Assembly: GCA_963664115.2 (NCBI GenBank)
Contig: CAXWPJ010000002.1
Location: 864,001 to 928,000, forward strand
From: Terriglobia bacterium
GTDB lineage: Bacteria; Acidobacteriota; Terriglobia; 20CM-2-55-15
DNA: 64,000 nucleotides
Reading direction: 5' to 3'
The notes beneath the pieces are model-generated. The model made no database searches, was not told where the DNA came from, and saw nothing but the letters and a program-made list of their open reading frames with translations. Positions 32,420 through 53,417 of the stretch are shown here, piece by piece (positions within the stretch are counted from its first letter, which is position 1; the number at the start of each line of letters is the position of its first letter). Made by a program: the position numbers and the translations under genes.

Positions 32420-32688
32420 TGACCTGTACTACCCAAATCGGGGCCAGCGCCGATGGGTCTTGCCGACGAGATCGAGGCGCGAAACGGAAGTCGATGTAAG
32501 CGCATCGGCGACGGCTCGTAACGAAGATGTCGCCGGCAACCCCCATCGGCCCAAAGGGTTCGGGCGAAACGGCATTGCCTTCGTTGTCGTCAGCTCCTCG
32601 GAATGAAGGGACATTTCCTCGTCGCTGACTCCTAGAATCCAGCGCCGTTTGGCCCGAACGCTGGTCCCGATTTGGGTGGTACAGGCCA
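32420..32688. mobile_element. MITE, 269 bp, with 30-bp terminal inverted repeats, flanked by CTAG
   Basis: TGACCTGTACTACCCAAATCGGGGCCAGCG matches the reverse complement of 32659-32688 at 27/30. CTAG at 32416-32419 and 32689-32692. No credible CDS. Confidence 0.85.
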
Positions 32689-32692
32689 CTAG

Positions 32693-34541
32693 TCCCAAAA
32701 CAAGCGCATAACCAGTCCGCCGAGGCCCAGTTCGCGCCGATAGAATTCGAGGCATAGAATCCCGTTCCCGGATGGCCTGTTCCAGGTATCGAGTTTCTGT
32801 TGAATCTGTTTCAGTTCAGCCTCGCTGGTGTTGGACGGTTGACAGAAACCGGGACCTCGATCGCCCGGGCTCAGAGTCATGATCGGGTCAACATCGCAGA
32901 GGCTGACGCAACACATCCACCCCGCGGAACAAGACCGGCAACCACCGGTTCCAGGCCAGGATCCGGAACAGAATGCGCCGCCCGGTGCGCACGAGTTGGC
33001 ACGGCACAAGCATGAAAGCGTTCAAGAAGGTTTTGAACTCCATGCGCAGCACGGTTTGCTTCTCAGCCTGATATTTTTGGCCCCAACGTCCGGTTTCGGG
33101 AAGCAGCAATGCAAACCACGCTTTCAGTGTCCAGGCCAGTGACGCGATCACCATGTAGGCCCAGTTGCTGGTCTGATCTCCGACCGGCATCCGCAACGCC
33201 TGAACGCCGTTCTTCAACTGCTCAATGAGATTCTCCTGATTGCACCGTTGATTGGCACGCATCACAATCTGGTCGGCCGGATCCGAACGGTTGGTAATGT
33301 AGAAGAAGTACCGGATGTCGTCAAACAACACCTGCTCTCCTTTGGCCACCGACAGATTCTTCCGCACCACGACGACACGGTAGTCCCGATCGCAGGCTCC
33401 GGGTCGATACCGAAACTCGGCCACATCCTCACCCTGCAAGCGGATATTGTCGAAACCGCGCTGCCGAACGATCTCTTCCTTCACGTTGTCGGGACGTTGG
33501 CGCGGTTCGGTCGCCACGTCGTATTTCGCGGGCCGTTCCAGGCGCTTCCACTGGCGCGGCTCCAGTTCATCGGCCCGGGCCTTCAGGTTCGCCATCGCGT
33601 CAATCCCGAATATGAAACCCACCTGCTGGTCGTCCCATCCGTCCAGATGCCGGGTCTGGCTGAAGTCCGTGTCCCCGCGCAGCAGGATCTGGCGAAACCC
33701 CGCATGCCGGCACAATGCGATGGCTTGGTCGAACCGGACCGCGGCTCCTTCATGCGACGGCCGGTTGCCGCTACGATTGACCAGATACAGCGGTTCGGCG
33801 GTGTTGGCCAGCGAGATCATCAGCGGGTGATATCCCCACGTCCCGTCGTAGGCCACGTCCATCCCTTGCTTGCATTCCCCCGTGGTTTCGGCCAGTGTCC
33901 CGTCCGCGTCCAACACCGCTTCTTCGAAAAACGCCGCCGGTTGCTGTCGCCAGACTCCGAGCCGGACTTGATTGGTTGCCTCCATCAGACACTCCACGTC
34001 GTCGGCCTCGAATCTCCGGCAGAAGTCTCCCGCCGTCGTCGGATCCGGAATCCGTTGCGCTCCCAGCGCATCCAGATACACCGCATCGTTGCGCCGCAGT
34101 TCGATGTCTTCCAGGCACGTTCCTCCGCTCAAGGCGTTGTAGGCGATGTTCAGCACGTGATCCGACTCGTGATACGGCAGGTGCCGCTTCAACACATGCA
34201 CGCCCTTGTCGATGGCTTCGATCAGCCCGGTCCGCCGCGCCACCAGTTGCATCGTCCCGATACCACCAACCGATGTGCCCCGCGTCCGCTCTCCCATCTC
34301 GTACTGAATGTTGCTCGCCGAAAACATCGGCTCTACCTGATCCGTCCAATGCCGGTCCCCAAGCCGACGTTCGATTCGCCGCTTGCGGTTCCTCATGTTC
34401 TTGCGCGTATAATCGTTCATCTGAAATGCCTCCTTTTCCGAAGAATCTGTTCAAGGTTTTTTTCGCACGGAGAGGGGGCATTTCGGGTACTTCCGCTCTT
34501 ATTGCACTATCATTTCCTCGTCAATCACGCTTGTTCAGGGT
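32693..34541 (-). mobile_element. IS1380-family insertion sequence, copy 1 (1849 bp)
   Basis: IRs CCCAAAACAAGCG / CCCTGAACAAGCG, CTAG on both sides; repeated at offset +17277. Confidence 0.92.
32888..34420 (-). CDS. IS1380 family transposase
   Basis: LDADGT, GYHPL, LRGDTDF, RCNQENLIEQLKNG; 510 aa. Confidence 0.9.
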   Translation of the reverse strand: MNDYTRKNMRNRKRRIERRLGDRHWTDQVEPMFSASNIQYEMGERTRGTSVGGIGTMQLVARRTGLIEAIDKGVHVLKRHLPYHESDHVLNIAYNALSGGTCLEDIELRRNDAVYLDALGAQRIPDPTTAGDFCRRFEADDVECLMEATNQVRLGVWRQQPAAFFEEAVLDADGTLAETTGECKQGMDVAYDGTWGYHPLMISLANTAEPLYLVNRSGNRPSHEGAAVRFDQAIALCRHAGFRQILLRGDTDFSQTRHLDGWDDQQVGFIFGIDAMANLKARADELEPRQWKRLERPAKYDVATEPRQRPDNVKEEIVRQRGFDNIRLQGEDVAEFRYRPGACDRDYRVVVVRKNLSVAKGEQVLFDDIRYFFYITNRSDPADQIVMRANQRCNQENLIEQLKNGVQALRMPVGDQTSNWAYMVIASLAWTLKAWFALLLPETGRWGQKYQAEKQTVLRMEFKTFLNAFMLVPCQLVRTGRRILFRILAWNRWLPVLFRGVDVLRQPLRC

Positions 34542-34584
34542 CTAGTCGCGCACACGAGTTTCCGTCCAAACAACAACTCCTGTT

Positions 34585-38910: not shown

Positions 38911-39591
38911 ATGCGGCGACTTCTGATCATGATGATCTTGATCGCGATGACCTCGGCGTGTGCGAAGCGCGCTCAAGTGCAGCTCCCGGGTCCCATCCCC
39001 AATCCGGGTGTCGTGATGGCATCCTCTGAGGGCGCGGCAGTCGATGGCCGTGCAAGTTATTACGGAGATCCCTACCATGGCCGGGCGACGGCCAACGGCG
39101 AGACCTTCGACAAGAACAAAATGACCGCGGCACACCGGACCTTACCATTCAACACCTGGGTTCGTGTCGAGAATCAGTTGAACAGGAGGAAGGTTGACGT
39201 TCGGATCAACGATCGTGGCCCCTTCGTGGGTGGGCGTCTGATCGACCTTTCCGAAGGAGCCGCGCGCGAGATCGACATGATCCGGTCCGGCGTCGCTCCA
39301 GTGCGCTTGGAGATCATCAAAGAGGCCCCAGCAGCGACCGGCGGGCGCGCCATCACCGAGGATGTGTTTTACGTCATCCAACTCGGTGCGTTCGGCAGCG
39401 AGCAAGCCGCGCAAGAGGTGAGGCGTCGATTCGAACCCAAGTACACCGGCATATACGTGGATCGTCCAACGGGCGACAGCCCCCTCTACAAAGTCCGTAT
39501 CGGACGATCCCTGCTCAGGGAAGCCCGCTTCATCCAGGATTTGCTCAAACGCGAAGACAACGTCGACGCGATTGTCGTCCAGATGAATTAG
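38911..39591 (+). CDS. rlpA: Septal ring lytic transglycosylase RlpA with SPOR domain
   Basis: Lipobox [31 protein letters not shown]. Confidence 0.9.
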
Positions 39592-39872: not shown

Positions 39873-40616
39873 TCAGGAGTGGGTCGGATCACACCGAAGG
39901 AACTCGGGTAAATCGTTGGAGGCACCGTTCTCGCCCGTTGCATTCAGAGTAATGATCGGCCAACCGCGAGCCTTCGCAGCCCGACGGAGGCGGTTCGTTG
40001 GATTCGTTGCCACGGGATGCCCGGTCTGAGATAGCATCGGAATGTCGGCCGAACTGTCCGAGAATGCGCATGAAGCCTTCAGGTCCAGATCTTCGGCCTT
40101 GGCATACAAGCGAATGATGGCGGCCTTTTCGTCTCCCACGACCAGTCGCGGAAGGACTTTGCCCGTGGCTACGTGATCCAGGAACTCCAGGCGATTGCAG
40201 ATGATCTCGTCAAATCCGAGCTGCAGAGCGATCGGGCGCACCGTGAAATCCAGGTCACCGGTGACCAGGACGTTGCGGTAACCCAGTTCGCGGGTCCGGC
40301 GGACCAGGGCTTCCGATCCCGCATAAATGGAAGGCTTAAGAGTGACTTCAAATAGATCGTCGGCCAGGCCGATGAGGCGGTCCCGGTGCATTCCCCGGTA
40401 GGCCCGGAACAAGAACACATTGAAAGACTTTCGCGAATAGAGATCCAGAACGAAGAATATCGGGACCTTTATAAGCACGTTCAGAAACTTGAAGATCGAT
40501 TTCAGGATCGACCTGTCGTTTCGGGCATAGTAGGCATACGTCATGACGAGATTACACGACAGCAGAGTGCCGTCCAGATCGAAAAACGCCGCCTTTTTAT
40601 GTTTTTCCGTGTCCAA
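39873..40616 (-). CDS. HAD-IB family phosphatase
   Basis: AAFFDLDGTL (motif I), LVTG, conserved K, FSDSSAD, NP; TTG start. Confidence 0.88.
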   Translation of the reverse strand: MDTEKHKKAAFFDLDGTLLSCNLVMTYAYYARNDRSILKSIFKFLNVLIKVPIFFVLDLYSRKSFNVFLFRAYRGMHRDRLIGLADDLFEVTLKPSIYAGSEALVRRTRELGYRNVLVTGDLDFTVRPIALQLGFDEIICNRLEFLDHVATGKVLPRLVVGDEKAAIIRLYAKAEDLDLKASCAFSDSSADIPMLSQTGHPVATNPTNRLRRAAKARGWPIITLNATGENGASNDLPEFLRCDPTHS

Positions 40617-40642
40617 TCTACTGCGACCTCAAAATTCGAATG

Positions 40643-41437
40643 TTACACCAGACCCTGACCTCGCCGCCGATTAATGAATCGGACCAGAGCCGGGATCCAA
40701 GCCGCGGGAAGAAGTCGGACGACAAAAACGAAAATGCGGTTGAAGAATCCAGGAACGACGATGTGCGTTCCGCGGAGAGTCTCGACGTAGGCCACTCGGC
40801 CAGCGGCCTCGGCCGTCATGCCCGAGCGGCTGTTTCTTTCCGAAATACCTGCGCGGGAACGAAACTCGGTCTGTGTGACACCGGGGCAAAATAGGGTCAC
40901 GGTCACGCCCGTCTTCCTCAACTCGTTGGCCAGAGAAGACGAGAACGAAAGCAAGAACGCTTTCGAGGCCGCATACACGGACTGTAGTGGGACCGGAGAG
41001 AAAGAGTATACGGACGCCACGAACAGAAGCCGTCCCCTGCCGCGTGAGATCATGGCGGGCAACACCGTCCGGGTGAGTGTCAGCGTGGCCGTGAGCTGTA
41101 CATTCAGGAGGTCGATATTCTCGTCAATTGAGGTCGAAGCGAACGAGCCCTGGATGCCAAAGCCTGCGTTATTGACCAGCACCTCGTAAGTGTAGGGTTT
41201 GGACCCGAGCGCGGCGACCAGGCTCTCGACACCCTCTCGGGTGGACAAGTCTGCGGGAACGACTTCGGTTTCGACACTGTGTCTGCGGGCACATTCGGCG
41301 GCGACTTCGGCCAGAGCTACCTCGTTCCGGCCCGTGAGAAACAGATTGAAGCCCCCGGCCGCGAACTCAGAGGCCAGCGCTTTCCCGATCCCGGACGAAG
41401 CACCTGTGATAACCGCCCACTTCGAATCCGCACTCAT
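40643..41437 (-). CDS. SDR family NAD(P)-dependent oxidoreductase
   Basis: TGASSGIG, NNAG, YAASK; ATGA overlap with the AGPS-like gene. Confidence 0.92.
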   Translation of the reverse strand: MSADSKWAVITGASSGIGKALASEFAAGGFNLFLTGRNEVALAEVAAECARRHSVETEVVPADLSTREGVESLVAALGSKPYTYEVLVNNAGFGIQGSFASTSIDENIDLLNVQLTATLTLTRTVLPAMISRGRGRLLFVASVYSFSPVPLQSVYAASKAFLLSFSSSLANELRKTGVTVTLFCPGVTQTEFRSRAGISERNSRSGMTAEAAGRVAYVETLRGTHIVVPGFFNRIFVFVVRLLPAAWIPALVRFINRRRGQGLV

Positions 41438-43266
41438 CGAATCTCCGGATCTTGATTACCCGCGCCGAAAAGGTTCGAAGGATCCAGAGTCTTCTTCAGC
41501 TCGCGTTTCCATTGAAGCGCCGTCTCAGACATGATTCGCGGCAGGTATGCCTGCCGGAGTTTGCCCACCCCATGATGGTGCGACAGAGACCCACCGGCCT
41601 TCAAAATTTCGTCGCGTGCGGCGTCCTCCAATTCGAGATAGATCTTCTGCGGATCGGGAATCCCCTTGTAGTAGAAGCCGAAGTAGAAATAAATGCAGAC
41701 CCCGGTGCGGTAGACCTGTGTTACGCGCGCGGTGACGTAGGGCTTGCCGGGTAATCCCCGGCCCTCGTACTCGTCGATGAGGCGCCGTTTCACGTTGTCG
41801 ATAAGCCCGAGCGCACCGCTCCAGGACACGGAGGTCTCGAAAGACTCTGCGATAACGTAGTAACTCATGAGAAAGTCACGGATGTATGCGATGCTGAACG
41901 TCAGCTGATAGCCGCGCCTGCCGTTCTCGCTACCGGCCGCCATTCCCCCATGACGGGTGGCGATTCGATAGAGATCGCGCTGCTGCTGAGACACTTCCGA
42001 ACGAGAGCCTTCAAACACAAGCGTGCATGCCACCATCTTCTCAGGCTGAAACCCTTTGATCCGGGTAACGTAGAATCGTTGCGCTCTGCTCTTCAACACC
42101 GCTATTCCGGCTGCCCCGGCTGCCGGCTTCAATGCAAGTCCGAACTGAAACTGAAGGTTGTCCACCAGACGCACACTGGCTGGAGGGGTGGCTTCGCGCG
42201 CCAGGTCGTACATGAAGCCGAATCCGTCTTCGAAGGTCGGGAACAGGACCGATCCATACTCCTGCTTGTCCGGCAAGCTGAATATCTTCACGATTGCTGA
42301 AGTAATGATTCCAAGCGTGCCTTCCGAACCGAACATCAATTGACGCAGGTCGGAACCGACCGACTCACGCGGCGACACGCCCGTCCGCTCAAGAGCGCCG
42401 GAAGCCGTCGCAACCTTCACATCGAGCACTATGTCTTCAATATTGCCGTACCGATTCTTCTTCATGCCGCTGGCATTGGTCGCAATCCAACCGCCGAGCG
42501 TGGAAAATTCGACGCTGTCGGGTTCGTGGCCCATCGTGACACCGTACTTTTCCAGTTCCGCCACGATGCGACGCCCCGGGGCTCCCGCCTCGACGCAGGC
42601 CATCATGTTCTTGCGATCGACCCAGACGACCCGGTTCAAGCGGCTCATGTCGACTGAGACGATAGTGCGCTGCTCGTCCTCTCGACAGCGAAGGGCATCG
42701 GTCACGTTTGTGCCACCGCCATAGGGGATCAGCGAAACATCGTGCCTCTTCGCGGCGTCGACCAGGCTTGCGACCTGATCCTCGTCTTGCGGGTACACCA
42801 CGAGATCCGGGATGCGACCCAAATCGGCATACTTGATGGCATACATTTCTTCCTGGGTGTGGCCGTGTCCGTGCCGCAGCCGTACTTCACCGCTGGATTC
42901 GATTTGATCCGCCTTCAGGAACTCACCGATCGCGGACAGAAACCCTGGAGCGCTCCGCGGCGGCGGAATGGTGGGGGGGTAGTTTGGGGCGTTGAATTCT
43001 TTGGGGTCGACATCCACACCGAGGACCTTTCTCACCCAGGGCAAAAACCGCGGCAACTCCTGTCCACTGAGCTCATATCGGGTTCCACGGATGACGACGT
43101 GACCGTTCTCATTGAAATCAAAACGGGTGTCGCGAAATCCCCAGACATCAAGGCTTTCAGCTTCACTCGCGTCGTCCGCAGCTGGCGTTTCGGGAAATAT
43201 CAGGGAGCCGTCGTCATCAGCGCTCTCGGCGGCGATGGGGCGGGGAGGTGTGTTGTCCAGACTCAA
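41434..43266 (-). CDS. Alkyl-dihydroxyacetonephosphate synthase (AGPS/ADAS) homolog, FAD-binding
   Basis: HGHGHTQEE, IPYGGGTNV, GHEPDSVEFSTLGGW..NASGMKKNRYGNIED, PASVRLVDNLQFQFG, GYQLTFSIAYIRD, ESFETS, RVTQVY..GVCIYFYF, GGSLSHHHGVG. Start reassigned to TTG 43266. Confidence 0.88.
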   Translation of the reverse strand: MSLDNTPPRPIAAESADDDGSLIFPETPAADDASEAESLDVWGFRDTRFDFNENGHVVIRGTRYELSGQELPRFLPWVRKVLGVDVDPKEFNAPNYPPTIPPPRSAPGFLSAIGEFLKADQIESSGEVRLRHGHGHTQEEMYAIKYADLGRIPDLVVYPQDEDQVASLVDAAKRHDVSLIPYGGGTNVTDALRCREDEQRTIVSVDMSRLNRVVWVDRKNMMACVEAGAPGRRIVAELEKYGVTMGHEPDSVEFSTLGGWIATNASGMKKNRYGNIEDIVLDVKVATASGALERTGVSPRESVGSDLRQLMFGSEGTLGIITSAIVKIFSLPDKQEYGSVLFPTFEDGFGFMYDLAREATPPASVRLVDNLQFQFGLALKPAAGAAGIAVLKSRAQRFYVTRIKGFQPEKMVACTLVFEGSRSEVSQQQRDLYRIATRHGGMAAGSENGRRGYQLTFSIAYIRDFLMSYYVIAESFETSVSWSGALGLIDNVKRRLIDEYEGRGLPGKPYVTARVTQVYRTGVCIYFYFGFYYKGIPDPQKIYLELEDAARDEILKAGGSLSHHHGVGKLRQAYLPRIMSETALQWKRELKKTLDPSNLFGAGNQDPEIR

Positions 43267-43358
43267 GGGGCCAATTCTAATACAAGAGGGCGGTGCGCGA
43301 CAGTTTATCAGATGCCGAGGCGTTACCGCAGCTCGATTGCCGCTCCCCTGCGATTCTG

Positions 43359-43720
43359 TTACTCGAATGTGATTCGGTCGATCATCGGGGGGTCTTGATC
43401 CCCGAATTGGCGATGGACAACGTAGATATAATCGCCTACGGCCGCTCCCGTCGTCGATTGCCCTTCGTACGTTGCAACGCCGGCCACTTCCCCCGACATC
43501 CATCCGTCGTTATTCGTCAACGCCACGACACCGGCACCGCTATTGAATACGATAGCCAAGCGTGCGTCCGCCGCCCATACGAGTCCGTCGGGGCCGGCCA
43601 CGGGTTCGGCTAGATTCACCTGTCGCGTTTCAGCTGGATCGTCCATAGGCATTTTGTAAATATTTCCGCTGCCTATCACCAACAGATAGCCGTCCGGATG
43701 GTGAACGATACCGTTCAGGG
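43359..43720 (-). pseudogene. 5-prime-truncated SMP-30/gluconolactonase-like beta-propeller gene
   Basis: LNGIVHHPDGYLLV...GPDGLVW...TTGAAVGDYIYVV. It overlaps the radical SAM 3-prime end in another frame and has no N-terminal half. Confidence 0.6.
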
Positions 43721-44673
43721 CTGACCCTTCCATTGACAGGCTGGCACTTGGCACCCTGAATGACATTCAACTCGTCCATGCGTCGCCGTATACCCAGCAT
43801 GACTTCGTTGCGCGTCTTGCCCCAGTCGGGGGCGACGAGTAAGCTGAGGGGTGCTTCACCGAAAAGTCGCTCGATGACGATAGAAGGTTTGAGGCGCTCT
43901 ACGAATTCGCAGATCAAATCAAGATATTCCTCGAAGCTCATCAGAGGGAAGGGCTGCTCAAGGTATTCTCGAGCCATCGCCGTGCCGCGCACAATGTGCA
44001 GATGATGAATTTTGAGGGAATCAATGCCGACTCGCGACATTTCATCCGCCATAGAGAGCCATTGATCGCGGGTTTCCCATGGAAAGCCCAGAATCAGGTG
44101 TGCGGCGGTATGAAATGCCCGGCCGCGTGTGAGCTCCATCGCACGGATGAACGCGCTGTAGTCATGCCCCCGATTGATTCTCTGAAGAGTGTCGTCGTAG
44201 ATTGACTCCACACCGAATTCCAGTGAGACCAAGGTCTTCTGGGCGATCGTGTCGATCATTTCTATCTTTGCTTCGTCCACGCAATCGGGCCGTGTCCCTA
44301 TCGCCAGACCGACGACATCAGGATGTTCCAGCGCCTCGGTGTACAGCGCGCGCAGGTAATGGGTGTCGGCGTAAGTATTTGAGAACGGCTGAAAGTAGAC
44401 GATGAATTTGCGGGCTCCGATCCTCTTGCGCAGGTAGGCGATTCCCTTGGCAACCTGTTCGTGGATTGGTGCCGTCTTTATGGCGAGCGGAGGGCGGAAC
44501 GAGCTGTTGTTGCAGTAGGTACATCCACCCACCGCTACCGTGCCGTCCCGGTTGGGGCATGTGAAACCCGCGTCTACGATGACCTTGTGGACACGTTCAC
44601 CAAACCGCCCCTGCAGCCAATGGTTGTATGTCCGGTAGCGGTCAGTTTTTCCAGCGACTCCCGGGGTCGTCAT
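43630..44673 (-). CDS. yhcC: TIGR01212 family radical SAM protein (YhcC-like)
   Basis: DAGFTCPNRDG...GGCTYC, YFQPFSNTY, IGTRPDC, RINRGH, LKIHHLHIVRGT. The C-terminal tail looks aberrant and the start is uncertain. Confidence 0.88.
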   Translation of the reverse strand: MTTPGVAGKTDRYRTYNHWLQGRFGERVHKVIVDAGFTCPNRDGTVAVGGCTYCNNSSFRPPLAIKTAPIHEQVAKGIAYLRKRIGARKFIVYFQPFSNTYADTHYLRALYTEALEHPDVVGLAIGTRPDCVDEAKIEMIDTIAQKTLVSLEFGVESIYDDTLQRINRGHDYSAFIRAMELTRGRAFHTAAHLILGFPWETRDQWLSMADEMSRVGIDSLKIHHLHIVRGTAMAREYLEQPFPLMSFEEYLDLICEFVERLKPSIVIERLFGEAPLSLLVAPDWGKTRNEVMLGIRRRMDELNVIQGAKCQPVNGRVSPERYRSPSGRLSVGDRQRKYLQNAYGRSS

Positions 44674-45415
44674 TGTCACGGTCTCTCTGTTCCTGCCTGC
44701 GGTTGTAATAGACTTCAAACTTGCGGCGCAATCTCTCGCGTTTCCATCGGTCGTAGTATTCGCGGAATTTGCGGGTAGAGAGGCCCCCTCTGAGGTAGAG
44801 GTAGCCGAATATCATGCCTCCAAGGTGGGCGACGTGAGCCACTCCACCACCGCTTCCCCCAGAGAATGATGCCAGGAAGGCCATGCCTCCGATGAACATG
44901 ACGTAGTACTTCACTTTCACCGGGATCATAAAAGGAATGAGAAGCATCTCTCGATTTGGAAACAGTAGGCCGTAGGCGAGCAGGATGCCGTAAATAGATC
45001 CAGAGGCACCGATCGTGGGGATCGTCGAACCCGGGCTAGCTACAACGCTCGATATACCCGCACCGATCCCACAGATGAAGAAAAATTTTACAAACTCACG
45101 TGTTCCCCAGACGCTCTCCAGTTCTCTGCCGAACATCCACAACGCGAACATATTGAACAGAATGTGGAAGAAGCCGCCGTGAAGGAAAATGTAGGTGACG
45201 AGCTGCCAGACGGCAAGGCTGCCAATGACGGCTGCAGGCGTCAGGCCGAAGCTGCTAATGAGCGATATCTGGAAGGCCCTTCCGCCCAGGGTCTGAAGCA
45301 CATAGACAGCCGCGCAGATGATCAGGATGATCTTGATCGCTTTCGTCAGGCCGCCACCGCTTATGGACGCGTAGGCAGGGCGTCCGCCGTAATTGCCTCG
45401 ATAATAGCGGGTCAA
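44642..45415 (-). CDS. Rhomboid family intramembrane serine protease
   Basis: WQLVTYIFLH..FHILFNM, IGASG, AHVAHLGG; probable TTG start at 45415. Confidence 0.9.
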   Translation of the reverse strand: MTRYYRGNYGGRPAYASISGGGLTKAIKIILIICAAVYVLQTLGGRAFQISLISSFGLTPAAVIGSLAVWQLVTYIFLHGGFFHILFNMFALWMFGRELESVWGTREFVKFFFICGIGAGISSVVASPGSTIPTIGASGSIYGILLAYGLLFPNREMLLIPFMIPVKVKYYVMFIGGMAFLASFSGGSGGGVAHVAHLGGMIFGYLYLRGGLSTRKFREYYDRWKRERLRRKFEVYYNRRQEQRDRDNDDPGSRWKN

Positions 45416-45582
45416 TCTAATCGTCCTTGGGCCGGAGAAAGCGGCCCGCATAGAACAGGCTGGCGCCGATGGCCGCCGTTTGCAACATGGGTCCCATGTC
45501 TCCAAAGTAAATCAGGAGTGCTTCCATCGTGACAATGAGCCCGACTAATTGAAGACCGGCTGATGCGTAGTAGCGTATCATT

Positions 45583-45655
45583 CTCTCTCGGAAACGCGGC
45601 CCGCAGCCTCTCTCGGAAAGGCGTCCCGCAGCTCACTCGAAAGGGCATCCGGAGT
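45583..45655. repeat. Three degenerate tandem 25-bp repeats in a divergent intergenic region
   Basis: CTCTCTCGGAAACGCGGCCCGCAGC, CTCTCTCGGAAAGGCGTCCCGCAGC (23/25), TCACTCGAAAGGGCATCCGGAGT. Confidence 0.7.
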
Positions 45656-45728
45656 TGCGGCAACGCGTGAAACCTCAATTGTAACAACACGAAGGTAAAG
45701 TCTGAAGGGTTGCCTTTCTGGAACTTAA

Positions 45729-46313
45729 GTGATGCTTCCTTGGCTCGTCGTTCTAAAGATTCTTGCCAGTTTCCTCCTGGGGGCCGTTCCCTTTGCGGTG
45801 ATTGCGGTCTGGGGGACGGGCATCGATATTACGAGAGCCGGTTCCCAAAATCCTGGCTTCAATAACGTCCTTCGCGTATCTTCCCGCTCGCGGGCTGTCT
45901 TCGCGCTGATTGGAGACCTATCCAAGGGCGCCGCCGCAGTCGCGATATTATCTGCCGTTTCTGATCCTGTCTGGTTTCGCTGGAGTCTCGGACTCGCCGC
46001 GGTGGGAGGGCACTGTTGGACACCGTTTTTGAAATTCAAAGGTGGAAAAGGTGTCGCTACGATGGCAGGCGCCTTGCTGTATCTGGACGTCCAGATCACA
46101 GGTATTTGCCTGATCCTCTACCCGACTCTCCGCCTGTTCGGCCGGAGAATGGGGTGGGCTCAGGAAGGCGCCATCTCGTCCATGACGACGATGTCGGTAA
46201 TCGCGGGGACGATCCTGACACTGCGCGGTAGCGAAGCGGGGGCCTTCGCCTTCCTCGCCCTCGCCATCGTCATCCTCCGCCATTCCCCCAACATCCGCCA
46301 GCTATTCAAGTAA
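45729..46313 (+). CDS. plsY: PlsY-family acyl-phosphate:glycerol-3-phosphate acyltransferase (variant motif 1)
   Basis: FLLGAVPF, GSQNPGFNNVLR, DLSKG, GHCW, FKGGKGVAT, RHSPNI. Confidence 0.85.
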   Translation: MMLPWLVVLKILASFLLGAVPFAVIAVWGTGIDITRAGSQNPGFNNVLRVSSRSRAVFALIGDLSKGAAAVAILSAVSDPVWFRWSLGLAAVGGHCWTPFLKFKGGKGVATMAGALLYLDVQITGICLILYPTLRLFGRRMGWAQEGAISSMTTMSVIAGTILTLRGSEAGAFAFLALAIVILRHSPNIRQLFK

Positions 46314-46325
46314 GAGAAAGACTTT

Positions 46326-46485
46326 TCACCGCAAAGACGCAAAGGAAGAATGGCTGCCTACACTTCTTATCAGCAGGATTTTTGGTTTCGCAAGAAAGCT
46401 GTCGGAACCCTTAACGTCAGGTAAACCGAAGCTCCACCCAGCCAAGATCCCTTTGCGTCTTTGCGCCTTTGCGCCTTTGCGGTTC
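46326..46485. repeat. Inverted array of cgcaaag/ctttgcg units
   Basis: ccgcaaag-acgcaaag ... ctttgcg x4 between convergent genes. Confidence 0.65.
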
Positions 46486-46500
46486 ATTCTTCCTTTCTCT

Positions 46501-47433
46501 TCACGGAACGAACATGCGGATGGCGGTGGGGAGAACGGTAATTTCCAGAGGGAGTTGTCCCAAAGGTTCGCCGTCGATTTCGATTCTGGTCGTATGCGGG
46601 GATTTTGCCGCCAGCTGTTTCACACGGCTGTGGTGGATTTTCGGGTGGTCATAGATCTGCCCATTGAAGAGGATGCGGCTATTTCGGATGATTTCCAAAA
46701 GCGAAAGCTTTTCGATCAGCGTCACGTCGAGGAATCCGTCGTTCGGAATGGCCCGCGGACAGATGTGCATTCCGGCCCCGTGGTACTGGCCGTTTCCAAC
46801 GGCAACGTTCGCGATTCGGAATTTGCGCCATTCGCCGCCGTCTGCCTGAATTGATACGTCATTCCCCCTGAAGCCGAGACCTGTAATTGCCGTTGCCGTT
46901 AAGAAAGCCGCCCTACCTCCCAAAGGCTTGGACGAGCGGTTGGCTCGTTCCGCAACCGCCCCACCCATGCCGAAGCTCGTAATATTGAGCGCGTACCGGG
47001 TTCGGTTCGCGCCCGTCGTATCCTGAAAAACAACGCGCATGGCATCAAGAACAGCGGTCTCGCCACGATCGATAACGCCGATGGCCTCGTCTTCACTAAG
47101 AGGCAGATTTACGGTTCGACGGAAGTCCGAACCCGTTCCCTGGGGAATGAGTCCCAGAGTCACGGTGGTATTCGGAGCACCTTCCGACAGGATTCCGTTG
47201 ACGGTTTCGTTCAGTGTCCCGTCTCCGCCTACTATGATTATCGTGCTGTAGCCCGATCGAACGGCTTCCTCGGACAACTCGATCGTATGTCCGGCGGATT
47301 CGGTCTGCATCACGTCAATTCGAGGACATGCCAGTGCGAGCTTGGCCTGGATTCTGCTCCAGTTGCGGCCGGTCTTTCCGTTGGCGGATTGCGGATTGAC
47401 GATAACGGCTACGGGTTGTCCATCGCTTTGCAT
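46501..47433 (-). CDS. Diacylglycerol kinase family lipid kinase (YegS/DgkB-like)
   Basis: NPQS, GGDGT, GTGSDF, NGQYHGAG, DGFLD, IDGE. Confidence 0.9.
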   Translation of the reverse strand: MQSDGQPVAVIVNPQSANGKTGRNWSRIQAKLALACPRIDVMQTESAGHTIELSEEAVRSGYSTIIIVGGDGTLNETVNGILSEGAPNTTVTLGLIPQGTGSDFRRTVNLPLSEDEAIGVIDRGETAVLDAMRVVFQDTTGANRTRYALNITSFGMGGAVAERANRSSKPLGGRAAFLTATAITGLGFRGNDVSIQADGGEWRKFRIANVAVGNGQYHGAGMHICPRAIPNDGFLDVTLIEKLSLLEIIRNSRILFNGQIYDHPKIHHSRVKQLAAKSPHTTRIEIDGEPLGQLPLEITVLPTAIRMFVP

Positions 47434-47666
47434 CAACTGTTCGTTCGGAGAAAGGCCACGGTGTTAACGATCTGTCTGTCGAGATTGTCACCCCTGATCG
47501 TTTCGATCCTCGCGTTGTTCTCTTATGGTGAAGCGACGCGGCACTGGGGGCGCAGCCGTCGGTCCCTGAATCTTTCTATGGATTGTTCAAGGAGAGAGTC
47601 GATCACATGGCGACCAACAATCCTGTAGCGCCCGTGACCAGAATGCGTTTAATCGGAACAGACGTT

Positions 47667-49274
47667 TCATGAAACAGGGATGTTGATGGACTGCTCCAGG
47701 GCCTTCATCTGCTTGGCGAACATGGGGCGAATCCACCGTTCAATGCCCTTGGTGTGGATATTGACCCAGTAGTCGGCCCAATCGATATCTTCAGGAGTCC
47801 ACTGAAGGCGTTCCTGGTCTTTTGGTGTAAGCAAGTTGTAGGCGCGCCGAATGTTTCCGGTTTCGAAAATGAAGCTGTTATGCACCATGAAAGGAAGGAA
47901 TTTATCCAGAGTTTGTTCCTGCTGTCGCAGTTGCCGACGCGTGATTCTCAGGTTCCGCAAATAGGAGTTCATGATGCGTGATCCGAGAATCACCTTCAAG
48001 AAGTTGAACGTCGCCTGGATCAAGTCCAGCCCCCAACGTACTCGCTTGCGGCTTGCCGCCAGTTGGGAAACGCTTACGACTTCGGTTTCGACGTAGGCCT
48101 TCCAGACATTGGCAAGCTTGTTGCCGCTTGTCTTGTGTTTGTGCTTGTAACGGGAATTTGTTCCCAGAAATCCGACCAGACGCGGCAGCATGATGGGATT
48201 GTCGGCAGCTGTCGCCAGGTGGTACACCGTCTCACCGCGGTCGGCCAGCACCGCAGCCGTCGCGATGAGGATGCCGGCGGCTATCAGGTCGACCGGAATA
48301 ATCTCCAGCGATCCGTCCTTCCTGACCGGCCACGCTTTGACCCCTTCACCGCCCATCAGGACCAGGGGCGCCGACGTTGTCATTCCCTCATTCCAACCGG
48401 GAAATGGGAACGCGAGCGAGGATTCGACGATCGCAGGTCGCACGATGCAGTACTTCAAACCCTCTGTGCGGGCGATGAGCTGTTCGCCCATGCTTTTCGC
48501 ATAGGTGTAGGTATTGATCCATCCCCAGTGCTCCGCCCGCTCCATACCGCCGTCCCGGAGCAATATTTTGTCTTCGGTTTCTCCGATGAATTGTTCGCAC
48601 CACTCGAGTTCACGCGTGACGTCGAATCGACGGTCTTCGGGCCCTTCGCGTCCGGGGTAGTAACCGACGATCGGTGTATCTTCCGGAATACGGCCACTCT
48701 TCTTGCCTCCGACGTAGCAGGTCGAGATATGGACGAGTTTGGCATCGAGCACCTGTACCAGTTCGATCAGATTTTGGATGCCGTATACGTTCGTGATGAG
48801 AGATTCGTTTAGCGGTGGATCGAACTCCACCAACCCCGCCGAATTGATGACGACGTCTACCGTGTCGGTGAGTGCGGCCAGTTGCTCGGCCCGGATGCCA
48901 CACATGGGGGCGCTCAGATCGCCTTCTACAATGGAGGTGCGGTGCCGGATCGAGTCCACACCTATGCGTTCCACAATCGCCTGAAGGGGAGGGGATTTGA
49001 GTATTTCGTTGAGGAAACGCTGTTCACCCGAGACGTTCTTTTTAGGCCTGACCTGTATGATGAGGTGCCTCAGTTCCGGGAATCGGTCCAGCATCATGGC
49101 CAGCAGGACTTTCCCGACGAATCCCGTCCCACCCAGCAAAAGAATCGTTTTACTTCGGAATTGATCGATGGCAGAGATTTCTCCGGTACCTCGAGGGCGT
49201 CTGGTGTCGGTAGGGACGTATTGACCCTGGACAGGGTCAAAACGCCACGAGGAGAGTTGGCCTTCGTCGCTCAT
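47667..49274 (-). CDS. Fatty acyl-CoA reductase (male-sterility/NAD_binding_4 extended SDR)
   Basis: GGTGFVGKV, NSAGLVEFD, HISTCYV, GWINTYTYAKSMGE, RPAIVESS..PFPGWNEG, IPVD, IDWADY. Confidence 0.85.
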   Translation of the reverse strand: MSDEGQLSSWRFDPVQGQYVPTDTRRPRGTGEISAIDQFRSKTILLLGGTGFVGKVLLAMMLDRFPELRHLIIQVRPKKNVSGEQRFLNEILKSPPLQAIVERIGVDSIRHRTSIVEGDLSAPMCGIRAEQLAALTDTVDVVINSAGLVEFDPPLNESLITNVYGIQNLIELVQVLDAKLVHISTCYVGGKKSGRIPEDTPIVGYYPGREGPEDRRFDVTRELEWCEQFIGETEDKILLRDGGMERAEHWGWINTYTYAKSMGEQLIARTEGLKYCIVRPAIVESSLAFPFPGWNEGMTTSAPLVLMGGEGVKAWPVRKDGSLEIIPVDLIAAGILIATAAVLADRGETVYHLATAADNPIMLPRLVGFLGTNSRYKHKHKTSGNKLANVWKAYVETEVVSVSQLAASRKRVRWGLDLIQATFNFLKVILGSRIMNSYLRNLRITRRQLRQQEQTLDKFLPFMVHNSFIFETGNIRRAYNLLTPKDQERLQWTPEDIDWADYWVNIHTKGIERWIRPMFAKQMKALEQSINIPVS

Positions 49275-49969
49275 ATGGGTGTCTGGGTCGCTTCCATCGC
49301 TTGCGGGCCGGACCCGAGAAACGGTGGGAACGGGTTGAAATCGTCAGCTTGGTCCGAACCGCTGAGGCTAATGATGGGCCACTGTTTGCCCTTCGCGAAT
49401 CGACGCAGCCGGCGCGTGGGGTTGGTCGCGACTGGATTTCCTGTAGCCGTCAGCATGGGAATGTCTGATGTGCTGTCAGAGAATGCGCAGCATGCATTTA
49501 GATCGAGATTCTCCAATTCCGCGTAGGCCATTATGATCGTGGCTTTCGCGGTCTCCGCCACTAACGGGGCAAGAACTCTTCCTGTAGCGATGTGCTTCTT
49601 GAACTCAAGGCGGTTGCAGATCACGTCGTCGACACCCAAATGCAAGGCGATGGGCCGGACCGTGAAGTCGAGGGCCCCGGTAACGAGGACAGTGCGGTAG
49701 CCCAGTTTTCGGGTCTGACGGACCAGAGCTTCAGAATGGGTGTAAATCGAAGGTTTCAATGTGACCTCGAAGAGATCGTCCGCGAGTCCTACGAGCCGGT
49801 CCCGATGCATGCCGCGATACGCTCGAAAGAAGAACATGTTGCACAAGGTCGGCGAATAGAGATCCAGCCCAAGAAAAAGTGGGACACTGGTCAGCACCTT
49901 CACAAACTGATTGATCGACTTGAAGACAAACCGATCGTTGCGGGCGTAGTAGGCGCAGGTCGTGACTAG
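49271..49969 (-). pseudogene. HAD-IB phosphatase paralog 5-prime-truncated by IS1380
   Basis: Closely similar to 39873..40616 from LVxTxAYYARNDR onward; the DxDGT motif I is replaced by IS sequence. Confidence 0.85.
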
Positions 49970-51818
49970 GCCCAAAACAAGCGCATAACCAGTCCGCCGA
50001 GGCCCAGTTCGCGCCGATAGAATTCGAGGCATAGAATCCCGTTCCCGGATGGCCTGTTCCAGGTATCGAGTTTCTGTTGAATCTGTTTCAGTTCAGCCTC
50101 GCTGGTGTTGGACGGTTGACAGAAACCGGGACCTCGATCGCCCGGGCTCAGAGTCATGATCGGGTCAACATCGCAGAGGCTGACGCAACACATCCACCCC
50201 GCGGAACAAGACCGGCAACCACCGGTTCCAGGCCAGGATCCGGAACAGAATGCGCCGCCCGGTGCGCACGAGTTGGCACGGCACAAGCATGAAAGCGTTC
50301 AAGAAGGTTTTGAACTCCATGCGCAGCACGGTTTGCTTCTCAGCCTGATATTTTTGGCCCCAACGTCCGGTTTCGGGAAGCAGCAATGCAAACCACGCTT
50401 TCAGTGTCCAGGCCAGTGACGCGATCACCATGTAGGCCCAGTTGCTGGTCTGATCTCCGACCGGCATCCGCAACGCCTGAACGCCGTTCTTCAACTGCTC
50501 AATGAGATTCTCCTGATTGCACCGTTGATTGGCACGCATCACAATCTGGTCGGCCGGATCCGAACGGTTGGTAATGTAGAAGAAGTACCGGATGTCGTCA
50601 AACAACACCTGCTCTCCTTTGGCCACCGACAGATTCTTCCGCACCACGACGACACGGTAGTCCCGATCGCAGGCTCCGGGTCGATACCGAAACTCGGCCA
50701 CATCCTCACCCTGCAAGCGGATATTGTCGAAACCGCGCTGCCGAACGATCTCTTCCTTCACGTTGTCGGGACGTTGGCGCGGTTCGGTCGCCACGTCGTA
50801 TTTCGCGGGCCGTTCCAGGCGCTTCCACTGGCGCGGCTCCAGTTCATCGGCCCGGGCCTTCAGGTTCGCCATCGCGTCAATCCCGAATATGAAACCCACC
50901 TGCTGGTCGTCCCATCCGTCCAGATGCCGGGTCTGGCTGAAGTCCGTGTCCCCGCGCAGCAGGATCTGGCGAAACCCCGCATGCCGGCACAATGCGATGG
51001 CTTGGTCGAACCGGACCGCGGCTCCTTCATGCGACGGCCGGTTGCCGCTACGATTGACCAGATACAGCGGTTCGGCGGTGTTGGCCAGCGAGATCATCAG
51101 CGGGTGATATCCCCACGTCCCGTCGTAGGCCACGTCCATCCCTTGCTTGCATTCCCCCGTGGTTTCGGCCAGTGTCCCGTCCGCGTCCAACACCGCTTCT
51201 TCGAAAAACGCCGCCGGTTGCTGTCGCCAGACTCCGAGCCGGACTTGATTGGTTGCCTCCATCAGACACTCCACGTCGTCGGCCTCGAATCTCCGGCAGA
51301 AGTCTCCCGCCGTCGTCGGATCCGGAATCCGTTGCGCTCCCAGCGCATCCAGATACACCGCATCGTTGCGCCGCAGTTCGATGTCTTCCAGGCACGTTCC
51401 TCCGCTCAAGGCGTTGTAGGCGATGTTCAGCACGTGATCCGACTCGTGATACGGCAGGTGCCGCTTCAACACATGCACGCCCTTGTCGATGGCTTCGATC
51501 AGCCCGGTCCGCCGCGCCACCAGTTGCATCGTCCCGATACCACCAACCGATGTGCCCCGCGTCCGCTCTCCCATCTCGTACTGAATGTTGCTCGCCGAAA
51601 ACATCGGCTCTACCTGATCCGTCCAATGCCGGTCCCCAAGCCGACGTTCGATTCGCCGCTTGCGGTTCCTCATGTTCTTGCGCGTATAATCGTTCATCTG
51701 AAATGCCTCCTTTTCCGAAGAATCTGTTCAAGGTTTTTTTCGCACGGAGAGGGGGCATTTCGGGTACTTCCGCTCTTATTGCACTATCATTTCCTCGTCA
51801 ATCACGCTTGTTCAGGGT
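49970..51818 (-). mobile_element. IS1380-family insertion sequence, copy 2
   Basis: Same length and identical translated ORFs as copy 1 apart from the first base (G vs T); CTAG at 49966-49969 and 51819-51822. Confidence 0.92.
50165..51697 (-). CDS. IS1380 family transposase
   Basis: Protein identical to 32888..34420. Confidence 0.9.
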   Translation of the reverse strand: MNDYTRKNMRNRKRRIERRLGDRHWTDQVEPMFSASNIQYEMGERTRGTSVGGIGTMQLVARRTGLIEAIDKGVHVLKRHLPYHESDHVLNIAYNALSGGTCLEDIELRRNDAVYLDALGAQRIPDPTTAGDFCRRFEADDVECLMEATNQVRLGVWRQQPAAFFEEAVLDADGTLAETTGECKQGMDVAYDGTWGYHPLMISLANTAEPLYLVNRSGNRPSHEGAAVRFDQAIALCRHAGFRQILLRGDTDFSQTRHLDGWDDQQVGFIFGIDAMANLKARADELEPRQWKRLERPAKYDVATEPRQRPDNVKEEIVRQRGFDNIRLQGEDVAEFRYRPGACDRDYRVVVVRKNLSVAKGEQVLFDDIRYFFYITNRSDPADQIVMRANQRCNQENLIEQLKNGVQALRMPVGDQTSNWAYMVIASLAWTLKAWFALLLPETGRWGQKYQAEKQTVLRMEFKTFLNAFMLVPCQLVRTGRRILFRILAWNRWLPVLFRGVDVLRQPLRC

Positions 51819-52290
51819 CTAGCGGCTCTCGACATCCACGGTGACCCCGTCTGGAAGCTGCTCGATTGCCTGCTTCAACGGGACCTTATAAAAACATCTG
51901 CAACCCTGTATCCCTATAGAATATAGATCAAAGTTGAAGGGACGACACCAAGTTCTTCGACAAGATGCGAAAAATTTGCGGGTGCGGATTTCCGAATCTG
52001 TATCGCAGCCAGGTAAGATTCCCGCCAATTTAGTTTGAAACTATGGGAGTCTGACGATATGAGAAATGATTCTCAACTCCTGAAAATTAAGATGTGGGAA
52101 GTCGAAAAACCCCAATATTTGGCCCATTTCTCAACTTCCTACGATGTCGTTTCTCAGGACCGGAGAATTTAATAGCGCCCAATTCTCTCCCTTAGTATTC
52201 TTTACCGAATTGTTCAGGGCTAGTTCAGAGGTGGACCCCATACGTTGGACAGCTTGGCAGCCAATTTAAGGTGGATTCCGCGGTTCATGT

Positions 52291-53139
52291 TTATGCTGCC
52301 GAGGTCAGTGGCCGTGTTCCCGCGTAGGCTTCGCTCGGCGTGAGATCGTCGAGTTTGGAATGCGGGCGGTCGTTATTGTAATAGTTCATCCAGACACCTA
52401 TGTGGTGCCGGGCATCTTTGAAGTCACTGAAGGCGTTTAGATAAACGCATTCGTATTTGATCGAGCGCCATAGGCGTTCGATGAAAACGTTGTCGATCCA
52501 TTGCCCCTTGCCGTCCATGGAGATCCGGATACCTCGTTCTTTAAGTCGGTCGGTCCAGGCCTTGCTGGTGAACTGGCTGCCCTGATCGGTGTTGAAGATT
52601 TCCGGACTGCCGTATTCCTCGATCGCCTCGTCGAGGGCTTCAAGGCAAAACGTCGTGTCCTGGGTGTTGGACAGCCGCCAGGACAACACCTTCCGCGTAT
52701 GCCAGTCCATGATCGCGACCAGATATAAGAATCCGTGCGCCATCGGGATATACGTCACGTCGGTAGACCACGCTTGATTCGCCCGCTCCACGGCAATGTC
52801 GTTGAGTAGATATGGGTACACCGGATGAGCCGGGTTTCTCCGGGACGTCTGCGGTGCCACCGAGCGCAGCCCCATCAACCGCATTAGTCGGCGTACCCGC
52901 TTCCGGCCCACATCGTAGCCGAGACGTTTCAGATGACGCGTCATCTGCCTGGACCCATACCAGGGCATCTTCAGATACGCCTCGTCGATCACGCGCATCA
53001 GGTCCAGATTGCGATCACTCTCACCCCGTGGCCGATAGTACCAACTCGAACGGCTCAACCCGATCAAGTCGCATTGCCGGACCACACTGAGCTGCTCATG
53101 GCCCGGTTCGACCACCTTGCGCCTTCGACCCAAGCTCAT
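52291..53139 (-). CDS. IS3 transposase OrfB (DDE)
   Basis: WSTDVTYI, NTDQGSQF, IERLWRSIKYE, RPHS; -1 frame relative to OrfA. Confidence 0.92.
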   Translation of the reverse strand: MSLGRRRKVVEPGHEQLSVVRQCDLIGLSRSSWYYRPRGESDRNLDLMRVIDEAYLKMPWYGSRQMTRHLKRLGYDVGRKRVRRLMRLMGLRSVAPQTSRRNPAHPVYPYLLNDIAVERANQAWSTDVTYIPMAHGFLYLVAIMDWHTRKVLSWRLSNTQDTTFCLEALDEAIEEYGSPEIFNTDQGSQFTSKAWTDRLKERGIRISMDGKGQWIDNVFIERLWRSIKYECVYLNAFSDFKDARHHIGVWMNYYNNDRPHSKLDDLTPSEAYAGTRPLTSAA

Positions 53140-53417
53140 CGATTGAAGGCTCGTGCTAAAAAATCCCGTTCCACGACCAGTTCACCGATCTTGGCCTGCA
53201 GGTCTTTGATCTCGTCCTCGTGGTTCCGGGCCGATGGATCCCGGCCTCGCTGGAATCCTTCTTTAACGCTATCAAGCGCATCACGCTTCCACTTCGTGAT
53301 CATGTTCGGATGGATCTTGTACCGCGCCGCCAATTCGGCCATCGTGCCGTCGCCACGCATCGCGGCCAGCGCTACCTTCGCTTTGAAATCTGCTGAAAAA
53401 TTCCGTCGTTTCGCCAT
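53136..53417 (-). CDS. IS3 transposase OrfA (HTH)
   Basis: RRNFSADFKAKVAL...KIGELVVERDFL; T6 run at 53158-53163 is a candidate frameshift site. Confidence 0.9.
   Translation of the reverse strand: MAKRRNFSADFKAKVALAAMRGDGTMAELAARYKIHPNMITKWKRDALDSVKEGFQRGRDPSARNHEDEIKDLQAKIGELVVERDFLARAFNR

What the first reader, a model, noticed from the sequence alone, without database searches (positions are those of the whole stretch)
39873..49969. Candidate eukaryote-style ether-lipid pathway: AGPS + SDR + HAD, FAR + HAD, PlsY variant, DAG kinase
Seen: seven lipid-related genes within 10 kb, namely a closely spaced AGPS-SDR-HAD unit, a coupled HAD-FAR pair, and convergent plsY and DAG-kinase-family genes. 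The two HAD genes are close paralogs, which links the two units. Established: the peroxisomal route uses FAR to make fatty alcohol, an acyl-DHAP source, AGPS to form the ether bond and an SDR-type alkyl-DHAP reductase. The characterised bacterial routes I recall (myxobacterial ElbD, Ger/PlsA-type reductases) work differently, and ether lipids occur in some Acidobacteria. Inference: this locus could encode nearly the whole alkyl-DHAP route to 1-O-alkyl glycerolipids. Bacterial AGPS homologs have been noted before; the clustered, step-complete set is the notable part.
Basis: partly seen in the sequence, partly recalled or inferred. Interest (0 to 1): 0.88.

Follow-up and report, generated by a model that had tools for sequence, protein, structure and literature searches.

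The report
Animal-type ether-lipid enzyme replaces bacterial elbC
In this uncultured acidobacterium an animal-type enzyme predicted to make ether-linked membrane lipids sits in a bacterial ether-lipid gene cluster that has lost its unexplained gene elbC, and each of 35 genomes searched in its order carries one gene or the other, which suggests ElbC likely makes the same bond by a different chemistry.

Summary
Six lipid genes are intact. The second HAD is split by an IS1380, and a radical-SAM and a rhomboid gene interrupt the set. AGPS is a close, catalytically intact relative of the mammalian enzyme. The pathway type is known: Myxococcus has an AGPS operon (MXAN_1676-1674) and the elb operon.

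The locus is a worn elb cluster: elbB-type HAD, the FAR half of a split elbD, an elbE remnant, DAG kinase and plsY. An AGPS-SDR-HAD cassette lies between rlpA and the radical-SAM gene. The LarA-like elbC is missing. In 35 genomes of the order, 28 have AGPS and 7 have elbC; none has both or neither (4 changes on an RpoB tree, only 3 independent pairs, not significant). The SDR follows AGPS; elbE follows elbC.

Best reading: AGPS+SDR replace ElbC+ElbE in one alkyl-DHAP route. The acyl-DHAP source is unresolved. Against: Myxococcus and two Blastocatellia-type genomes keep both, the phylum-wide overlap equals chance, and no lipid or activity was measured. The scan had earlier noted ElbC as LarA-like, and AGPS beside an odd PlsY, on other DNA; I saw no note of the either/or pattern.

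The parts
38911..39591 (+). rlpA; left flank of the cassette, adjacent to the radical-SAM gene in the AGPS-less sister genome G325
39873..40616 (-). HAD-IB phosphatase (elbB type), intact DLDGT motif; third gene of the AGPS cassette
   Evidence: TIGR01490 above cut-off; motif; 44-48% identity to HADs beside elbC in six other acidobacterial loci
40643..41437 (-). SDR (TGASSGIG, NNAG, YAASK); predicted acyl/alkyl-DHAP reductase
   Evidence: in 26 of 35 order genomes, all AGPS-positive
41434..43266 (-). Alkyl-DHAP synthase (AGPS), MXAN_1676/animal type
   Evidence: 562 bits (E 1e-167) to guinea-pig AGPS 4bby, 328 to 2uuu, <=92 to other FAD oxidases; R419, R515, Y578 in 83 of 83 and the His triplet in 82 of 83 relatives
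43359..43766 (-). 135-aa ORF, no Pfam match; probably the remnant of a 365-aa gene found upstream of AGPS in L013
43630..44718 (-). TIGR01212 radical-SAM protein (annotated tRNA modification); not shown to be part of the pathway
44642..45505 (-). Rhomboid protease; conserved neighbour of plsY, not shown to be part of the pathway
45732..46313 (+). PlsY variant (GSxNPGFNN, 6-aa insert); the only plsY of the genome; candidate first acyltransferase
46501..47436 (-). YegS/DAG-kinase-family lipid kinase, a recurring neighbour of elb genes
   Evidence: TIGR00147 above cut-off; beside elbD or elbC in L174, L185, L189, L354, L356
47466..47653 (-). Decayed 5' remnant of elbE (NAD-dependent epimerase/dehydratase family)
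   Evidence: tblastn E 4e-12 with an in-frame stop; intact in same-genus G324
47667..49274 (-). Fatty acyl-CoA/ACP reductase = N-terminal half of a split ElbD
   Evidence: PF07993+PF03015; E 5e-38 to FAR 7eoz; 36% over residues 25-540 of a full ElbD
49271..49963 (-). Original elbB-type HAD, broken by IS1380; abuts FAR where elbC lies in relatives
49964..51821 (-). IS1380-family element, CTAG at both ends
   Evidence: NF033539

Best explanation
This locus is an elb-type gene cluster that has lost elbC and elbE and carries an intact AGPS-SDR-HAD cassette, and it likely makes 1-O-alkyl glycerolipids by the alkyl-DHAP route, with AGPS and the SDR predicted to do the jobs of the lost genes. Inferred steps: FAR reduces acyl-CoA/ACP to a fatty alcohol. 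An acyltransferase supplies acyl-DHAP; my odds are the PlsY variant ~0.4, the detached ACS-ACP-acyltransferase half of ElbD on contig C9 ~0.35, and PlsY-made lysophosphatidate oxidised by the SDR ~0.2. AGPS swaps the acyl group for the alcohol, making the ether bond. The SDR reduces alkyl-DHAP to alkyl-glycerol-3-phosphate. The HAD and the kinase interconvert phosphorylated and free alkylglycerols. Shown: gene identities, residues, gene order, deletion scars and the either/or distribution. Not shown: any activity or lipid.
For: AGPS score and invariant residues. AGPS in 28 of 35 and elbC in the other 7 of 35, 20 and 5 among the 25 high-quality genomes. SDR in 26 of 35, never without AGPS; the two AGPS genomes lacking it have AGPS at a contig end. 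elbE in 8 of 35 = the 7 elbC genomes plus G324. Order HAD-elbC-FAR-elbE-DAGK><plsY in G325, G318, G319, G311 and outgroup G217. MXAN_1530/1529/1527 are annotated HAD-IB, lactate-racemase-domain and epimerase (supplement file 9 of PMC11980068). Stepwise decay in the genus: G324 keeps elbE, G000 and G323 keep remnants, G326 none. The ElbC tree follows the RpoB tree, so elbC was lost repeatedly. In other families 7 of 7 AGPS carriers checked have full ElbD and no elbC match, and 0 of 10 further AGPS genomes matched elbC (completeness unknown). No Ger/PlsA domain in G000 while controls rang. MXAN_1676 is genetically tied to ether lipids (PMC9131029).
Against: Only 4 changes of state and 3 independent pairs, sign test p 0.25; the Fisher p of 1.5e-7 ignores kinship. 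In the 301-genome phylum sample AGPS (17) and elbC (25) overlap in 2 genomes against 1.4 expected by chance, so there is no raw avoidance. M. xanthus has both operons (PMC9131029). No GNPAT/FARAT here. PlsY keeps both residues that bind the G3P 2-OH (S142, H177), so its sequence does not show a switch to DHAP. The SDR matches only generic SDRs. 11 of 37 FAR-positive phylum genomes have neither gene (7 of the 8 inspected are HAD-FAR fusions in another cluster), so FAR alone does not imply ether lipid.
Confidence: 0.7

Rival explanations
1. AGPS-SDR makes ether lipids, but ElbC is not its counterpart: ElbC and ElbE do a different step (for example an isomerisation or redox step on an ElbD-bound or glycerol intermediate, with the ether formed reductively by ElbD), and they are lost only because the whole route became redundant.
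For: ElbC passes the cut-off of NF052592, named a hydroxyacid isomerase family. FAR and HAD are kept in both states. An aldehyde and no fatty alcohol or acyltransferase activity were seen with ElbD in vitro, as reviewed in PMC9131029.
Against: The genes that drop out are exactly two, matching the two gained; groups 14/15 lack the second catalytic histidine needed for racemisation (PMC12611868).
Confidence: 0.3
2. The cassette scavenges or remodels external fatty alcohols or ether lipids rather than making membrane ether lipids de novo.
For: No recognised DHAP acyltransferase; a GDSL lipase and an ABC transporter recur nearby in relatives.
Against: FAR is intact and present in 34 of 35 genomes; AGPS relatives sit beside an acyltransferase in other lineages.
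Confidence: 0.1
3. The neighbourhood is partly accidental: plsY and the kinase are housekeeping phospholipid genes, and the AGPS cassette lies near FAR by chance in an IS-shuffled genome.
For: plsY is single-copy in 31 of 32 positive genomes; in G323 and G312 AGPS and FAR are on different contigs or ~40 kb apart; 73 IS copies.
Against: The PlsY variant lies in 12 of 25 Terriglobia AGPS loci, in several different gene orders, including FAR-ACP/ACS-plsY-AGPS-SDR-DAGK in L025. The genome-level either/or pattern does not depend on position.
Confidence: 0.2

Closest known systems
Myxococcus xanthus MXAN_1676-1675-1674 operon (AGPS, FAR-GNPAT fusion, NAD-dependent epimerase)
   Same: Animal-type AGPS (MXAN_1676 ~42% identical to human AGPS, PMC9131029) with a FAR and a Rossmann-fold reductase; 17 of 26 non-Terriglobia, non-Blastocatellia loci have FARAT.
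   Different: No FARAT/GNPAT here; a classical SDR in place of the epimerase; FAR is ElbD-derived; a PlsY variant, HAD and kinase are the neighbours.
M. xanthus elbABCDE operon (MIBiG BGC0000871) and its acidobacterial/poribacterial versions, including split elbD
   Same: elbB-type HAD directly before the ElbD FAR domain, an elbE remnant after it; neighbouring G3P acyltransferases and DAG kinases were noted in sponge-symbiont elb clusters (bioRxiv 10.64898/2026.06.23.733905).
   Different: elbC absent, elbE decayed, the ACS-ACP-acyltransferase half lies on another contig (32% identity), and AGPS-SDR is present.
Mammalian peroxisomal route (FAR1, GNPAT, AGPS, acyl/alkyl-DHAP reductase)
   Same: AGPS aligns over 570 residues with active-site positions kept.
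   Different: No GNPAT; no PEDS1/CarF match (but its controls were silent); the SDR is not shown to be orthologous to the eukaryotic reductases.

Membership tests
Alkyl-DHAP synthase (AGPS) | FAD_binding_4 + FAD-oxidase_C with best match to AGPS, far above other FAD oxidases | tested here: met
   (562 vs <=92 bits)
Alkyl-DHAP synthase (AGPS) | Active-site R419, R515, Y578, H615-617 (guinea-pig numbers read from the alignment; their roles are recalled) | tested here: met
Alkyl-DHAP synthase (AGPS) | Acyl-DHAP/fatty alcohol exchange activity | not testable with these tools
   needs an assay
MXAN_1676-1674 operon | AGPS followed by FAR-GNPAT fusion and epimerase | tested here: not met
   0 of 25 Terriglobia loci have FARAT; only three PF01553 genes in G000, none a FAR fusion
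elb operon | elbB HAD and ElbD domains (FAR; ACS-ACP-acyltransferase) | tested here: met
   present but split between C2 and C9
elb operon | elbC and intact elbE | tested here: not met
   no elbC match; elbE remnant only
PlsY G3P acyltransferase | S35, N37, R45, H92, K104, S142, H177, N180 (PMC5700162) | tested here: met
PlsY G3P acyltransferase | A40/T41 acyl-carbonyl site; TIGR00023 cut-off | tested here: not met
   FN in 121 of 122 variants vs AT in 65 of 71 canonical; 116 bits vs cut-off 137
DHAP acyltransferase function of the PlsY variant | Changed acceptor site or activity on DHAP | tested here: inconclusive
   acceptor-site residues unchanged; no structure model obtained
Acyl/alkyl-DHAP reductase | Orthology to characterised reductases | not tested
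   no reference sequences obtained; only generic SDR hits
ElbC = LarAH14/15/16 (gene in relatives) | NF052592 above cut-off; position between elbB and elbD | tested here: met
   815 and 849 bits vs 740

The most novel reading that the evidence does not exclude
ElbC, a LarA-superfamily nickel-pincer protein lacking the second racemase histidine, is the ether-bond-forming enzyme of the elb pathway, a non-homologous equivalent of flavin-dependent AGPS. ElbE is the matching reductase. This order shows the two modules being swapped repeatedly on a shared FAR/HAD/kinase/PlsY chassis, in which a PlsY-family protein acts as the DHAP acyltransferase.
Probability: 0.4. Interest if true: 0.88.

Novelty: new variant of a known kind. 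Interest (0 to 1): 0.64.

Why it matters
How the elb pathway of myxobacteria and acidobacteria forms its ether bond is unassigned; elbC is called 'unknown function' in PMC9131029. The either/or pattern names a candidate enzyme and a direct test (swap AGPS for elbC). It also changes how genomes should be screened for bacterial ether-lipid producers: elbD or agps alone is not the unit; a FAR/ElbD chassis plus either ElbC or AGPS is. If the PlsY variant acylates DHAP, that would be a new activity for that family.

Tried and rejected
1) A PlsY acceptor-site switch: I first read the lost Ser as S142; recounting the alignment shows it is S139 and S142 is kept, so the argument was dropped. 2) larC as a discriminator: present in 5 of 5 elbC and 5 of 5 AGPS genomes; uninformative. 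3) CarF/PEDS1: no match, but controls were silent. 4) Promoter and terminator counts equal shuffles. 5) GC/GC3 of the cassette does not differ clearly from its neighbours. 6) No RNA holder listed. 7) Structure prediction unavailable (five tries busy). The RpoB tree used 30 of 35 order genomes. One search dropped 3 rows without the motif; one search used 83 of 86 loci. 9) One search mislabelled three loci; the AGPS tree was rebuilt, and the HAD tree still has one duplicated row (G313 = G317). 10) The metagenome scan with PlsY returned mostly canonical PlsY and served only as the comparison set. 11) Lineage groups were set by record-title keywords.
Full report
Observation. The window is G000:C2:864001-928000 of a 4.9-Mb, 97%-complete genome. 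Its closest AGPS relatives (88%) are Terriglobia MAGs. Three corrections follow. The HAD at 49271-49963 lacks its DxDG motif because an IS1380 with CTAG ends interrupts it; the missing 5' piece lies on contig C1 beside another copy, and contigs of three runs stop at the same junction. A TIGR01212 radical-SAM gene and a rhomboid gene lie inside the span. A decayed gene fragment sits between FAR and the kinase.

AGPS. The 610-aa protein scores 562 bits against guinea-pig AGPS (4bby), 328 against 2uuu and at most 92 against other FAD oxidases. Positions equivalent to R419, R515 and Y578 are invariant in 83 of 83 relatives and the His triplet in 82 of 83 (83 of 86 loci were long enough). The numbers come from the alignment; the catalytic roles are recalled, and a paper search on them found nothing. 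Among 78 related loci the acyltransferase partner differs by lineage: a FAR-GNPAT fusion in 17 of 26 'other' loci, a PF01553 acyltransferase in 27 of 27 Blastocatellia-type loci, and neither in 25 Terriglobia loci. In those 25, the SDR follows within 150 bp in 21 and the PlsY variant is within the locus in 12. Proteins fusing FAR, acyltransferase and AGPS domains also exist.

Census of the order (35 genomes, one family, 68-100% complete). AGPS 28, SDR 26, FAR 34, HAD 31, plsY 32. The seven genomes without AGPS also lack the SDR. In four of them a 1.7-kb gap between HAD and FAR holds a LarA-like gene, and an NAD-epimerase gene follows FAR; contig ends cut the unit in the other three. The LarA-like gene is in exactly those 7 and in none of the 28 AGPS genomes; the epimerase is in those 7 plus G324. 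A supplement table of PMC11980068 annotates MXAN_1530, 1529 and 1527 as HAD-IB, lactate-racemase/DUF2088 and NAD epimerase. Other acidobacteria show HAD, LarA-like, full ElbD, epimerase in that order. So the ancestral unit is elbB-elbC-FAR(elbD)-elbE-DAGK facing plsY, as in outgroup G217. The ACS-ACP-acyltransferase half has a 32%-identical counterpart on C9.

History at this locus. In sister genome G325 rlpA and the radical-SAM gene are adjacent and the elb unit is whole. In G000 and G324 the AGPS-SDR-HAD cassette lies between those two genes and elbC is gone. elbE is intact in G324, a remnant in G000 and G323, and absent in G326. In genus g193, G315/G318/G319 keep elbB, C and E, while G316/G317 have lost them from the locus and carry AGPS-SDR-HAD elsewhere. 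On an RpoB tree of 30 of the 35 genomes the state changes 4 times, with 3 independent pairs, all in the same direction, p 0.25. The ElbC tree mirrors RpoB, so elbC was inherited vertically and lost several times. The AGPS tree also roughly follows the species tree, so reciprocal loss from an ancestor with both, or transfer among close kin, cannot be told apart.

Beyond the order. In a 301-genome phylum sample 17 genomes have true AGPS and 25 have elbC; 2 have both, against 1.4 by chance, so there is no raw avoidance. Conditional on an ElbD-type FAR, 24 of 26 have elbC and the other two (G000, G252) have AGPS. Seven of seven AGPS carriers checked in other families (of 14) have a full ElbD and no elbC match; in G152 and G108 ElbD lies beside AGPS-SDR. 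Ten more AGPS genomes gave no elbC match (completeness unknown). M. xanthus has both operons. Eleven FAR-positive genomes have neither gene; 7 of the 8 inspected are HAD-FAR fusions in a different cluster.

Mechanism. I infer FAR to fatty alcohol, AGPS to alkyl-DHAP, SDR to alkyl-G3P, with the HAD and kinase acting on alkylglycerol(phosphate)s. The acyl-DHAP source is open. G000 has one plsY, two identical plsX, gpsA, a plsC and two ACS-ACP-acyltransferases, and no Ger/PlsA domain. The PlsY variant keeps the phosphate clamp and both 2-OH binders but changes A40/T41 to F/N (121 of 122 variants; 65 of 71 canonical have AT), the site that binds the acyl carbonyl in PMC5700162, and has a six-residue insert. 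That marks a distinct subfamily but does not show DHAP use. It occurs in both states. ElbC passes the LarAH14/15/16 cut-off, groups reported to lack the second racemase histidine (PMC12611868); larC is present in both states. An electrophilic nickel-pincer cofactor trapping the acyl-DHAP enolate, as flavin is thought to do in AGPS, is my speculation.

Literature seen. PMC13012113: parts 1, 3 and 4 of 7 and passages; no mention of Acidobacteria in the main text; the AGPS tree was unresolved; datasets not read and may list these genomes. PMC9131029: passages. bioRxiv 10.64898/2026.06.23.733905: parts 1-4 of 6, supplements closed; it reports elb clusters with adjacent G3P acyltransferases and DAG kinases, split elbD, and agps with elbD in the same Acidobacteriota MAGs. 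PMC13159169, PMC11868695, PMC13274423, PMC9426513, PMC11770544, PMC5700162: passages. PMC12611868: part 1 of 5. PMC13256971: abstract. PMC11980068: supplement rows. Lorenzen 2014, Gallego-Garcia 2019 and Sinninghe Damste 2014/2018 were not seen directly. Searches found elbC discussed only in PMC9131029 (unknown function); one search listed no paper whose title or abstract start concerns a PlsY acting on DHAP. Subscription papers are not covered.

Verdict. A new variant of known ether-lipid systems. The value lies in the swap evidence, which makes the unassigned ether-forming step of the elb pathway testable. It rests on few independent events and on no biochemistry. Earlier scan notes reached 'ElbC is LarA-like' and 'AGPS with an odd PlsY' on other DNA; I saw them after forming the reading, and they are not independent support.

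Noticed in passing
window 49964-51821 and 32688-34545; genome-wide: IS1380 element with 73 near-full, mostly >99% identical copies; all 14 copies printed have CTAG ends. Recombination between copies has apparently separated the two halves of the HAD gene onto different contigs.
   Followed up: partly
G000 C2:589960-590922 and C6:361956-362918 (L089, L090): A ~9-kb block with plsX, fabD-like, fabF-like and ETF-QO genes is present twice, with identical plsX scores.
   Followed up: no
P0135, P0137, P0140, P0144, P0147: 2,200-2,700-aa proteins fusing ACBP, an aminotransferase-like domain, FAR, acyltransferase and AGPS; origin not determined.
   Followed up: partly
L338-L343, L345 (G071, G014, G237, G016, G151, G254, G273): Conserved acidobacterial cluster: HAD-FAR fusion (~790 aa), second reductase, pyruvyl-transferase-like protein, acyl-CoA ligase(s), sometimes DAG kinase, with neither AGPS nor elbC found; possibly another lipid pathway.
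   Followed up: partly
L008-L064 (Blastocatellia-type loci): AraC-AGPS-PF01553 acyltransferase-(SDR) cassette; the SDR is present in only 10 of 27. G121 has elbE and no SDR beside AGPS; G282 has the SDR and no elbE beside elbD.
   Followed up: partly
L044:2470-11271: Latescibacterota contig with ACS, FAR, a 664-aa HxxxxD-type protein without Pfam match, AGPS, SDR and HAD in one run.
   Followed up: partly
G000 C2:21634-22899: larC is kept although no elbC is found; the nickel-pincer client in AGPS genomes is unidentified.
   Followed up: no
window 52291-53417: IS3-family element next to the IS1380.
   Followed up: no
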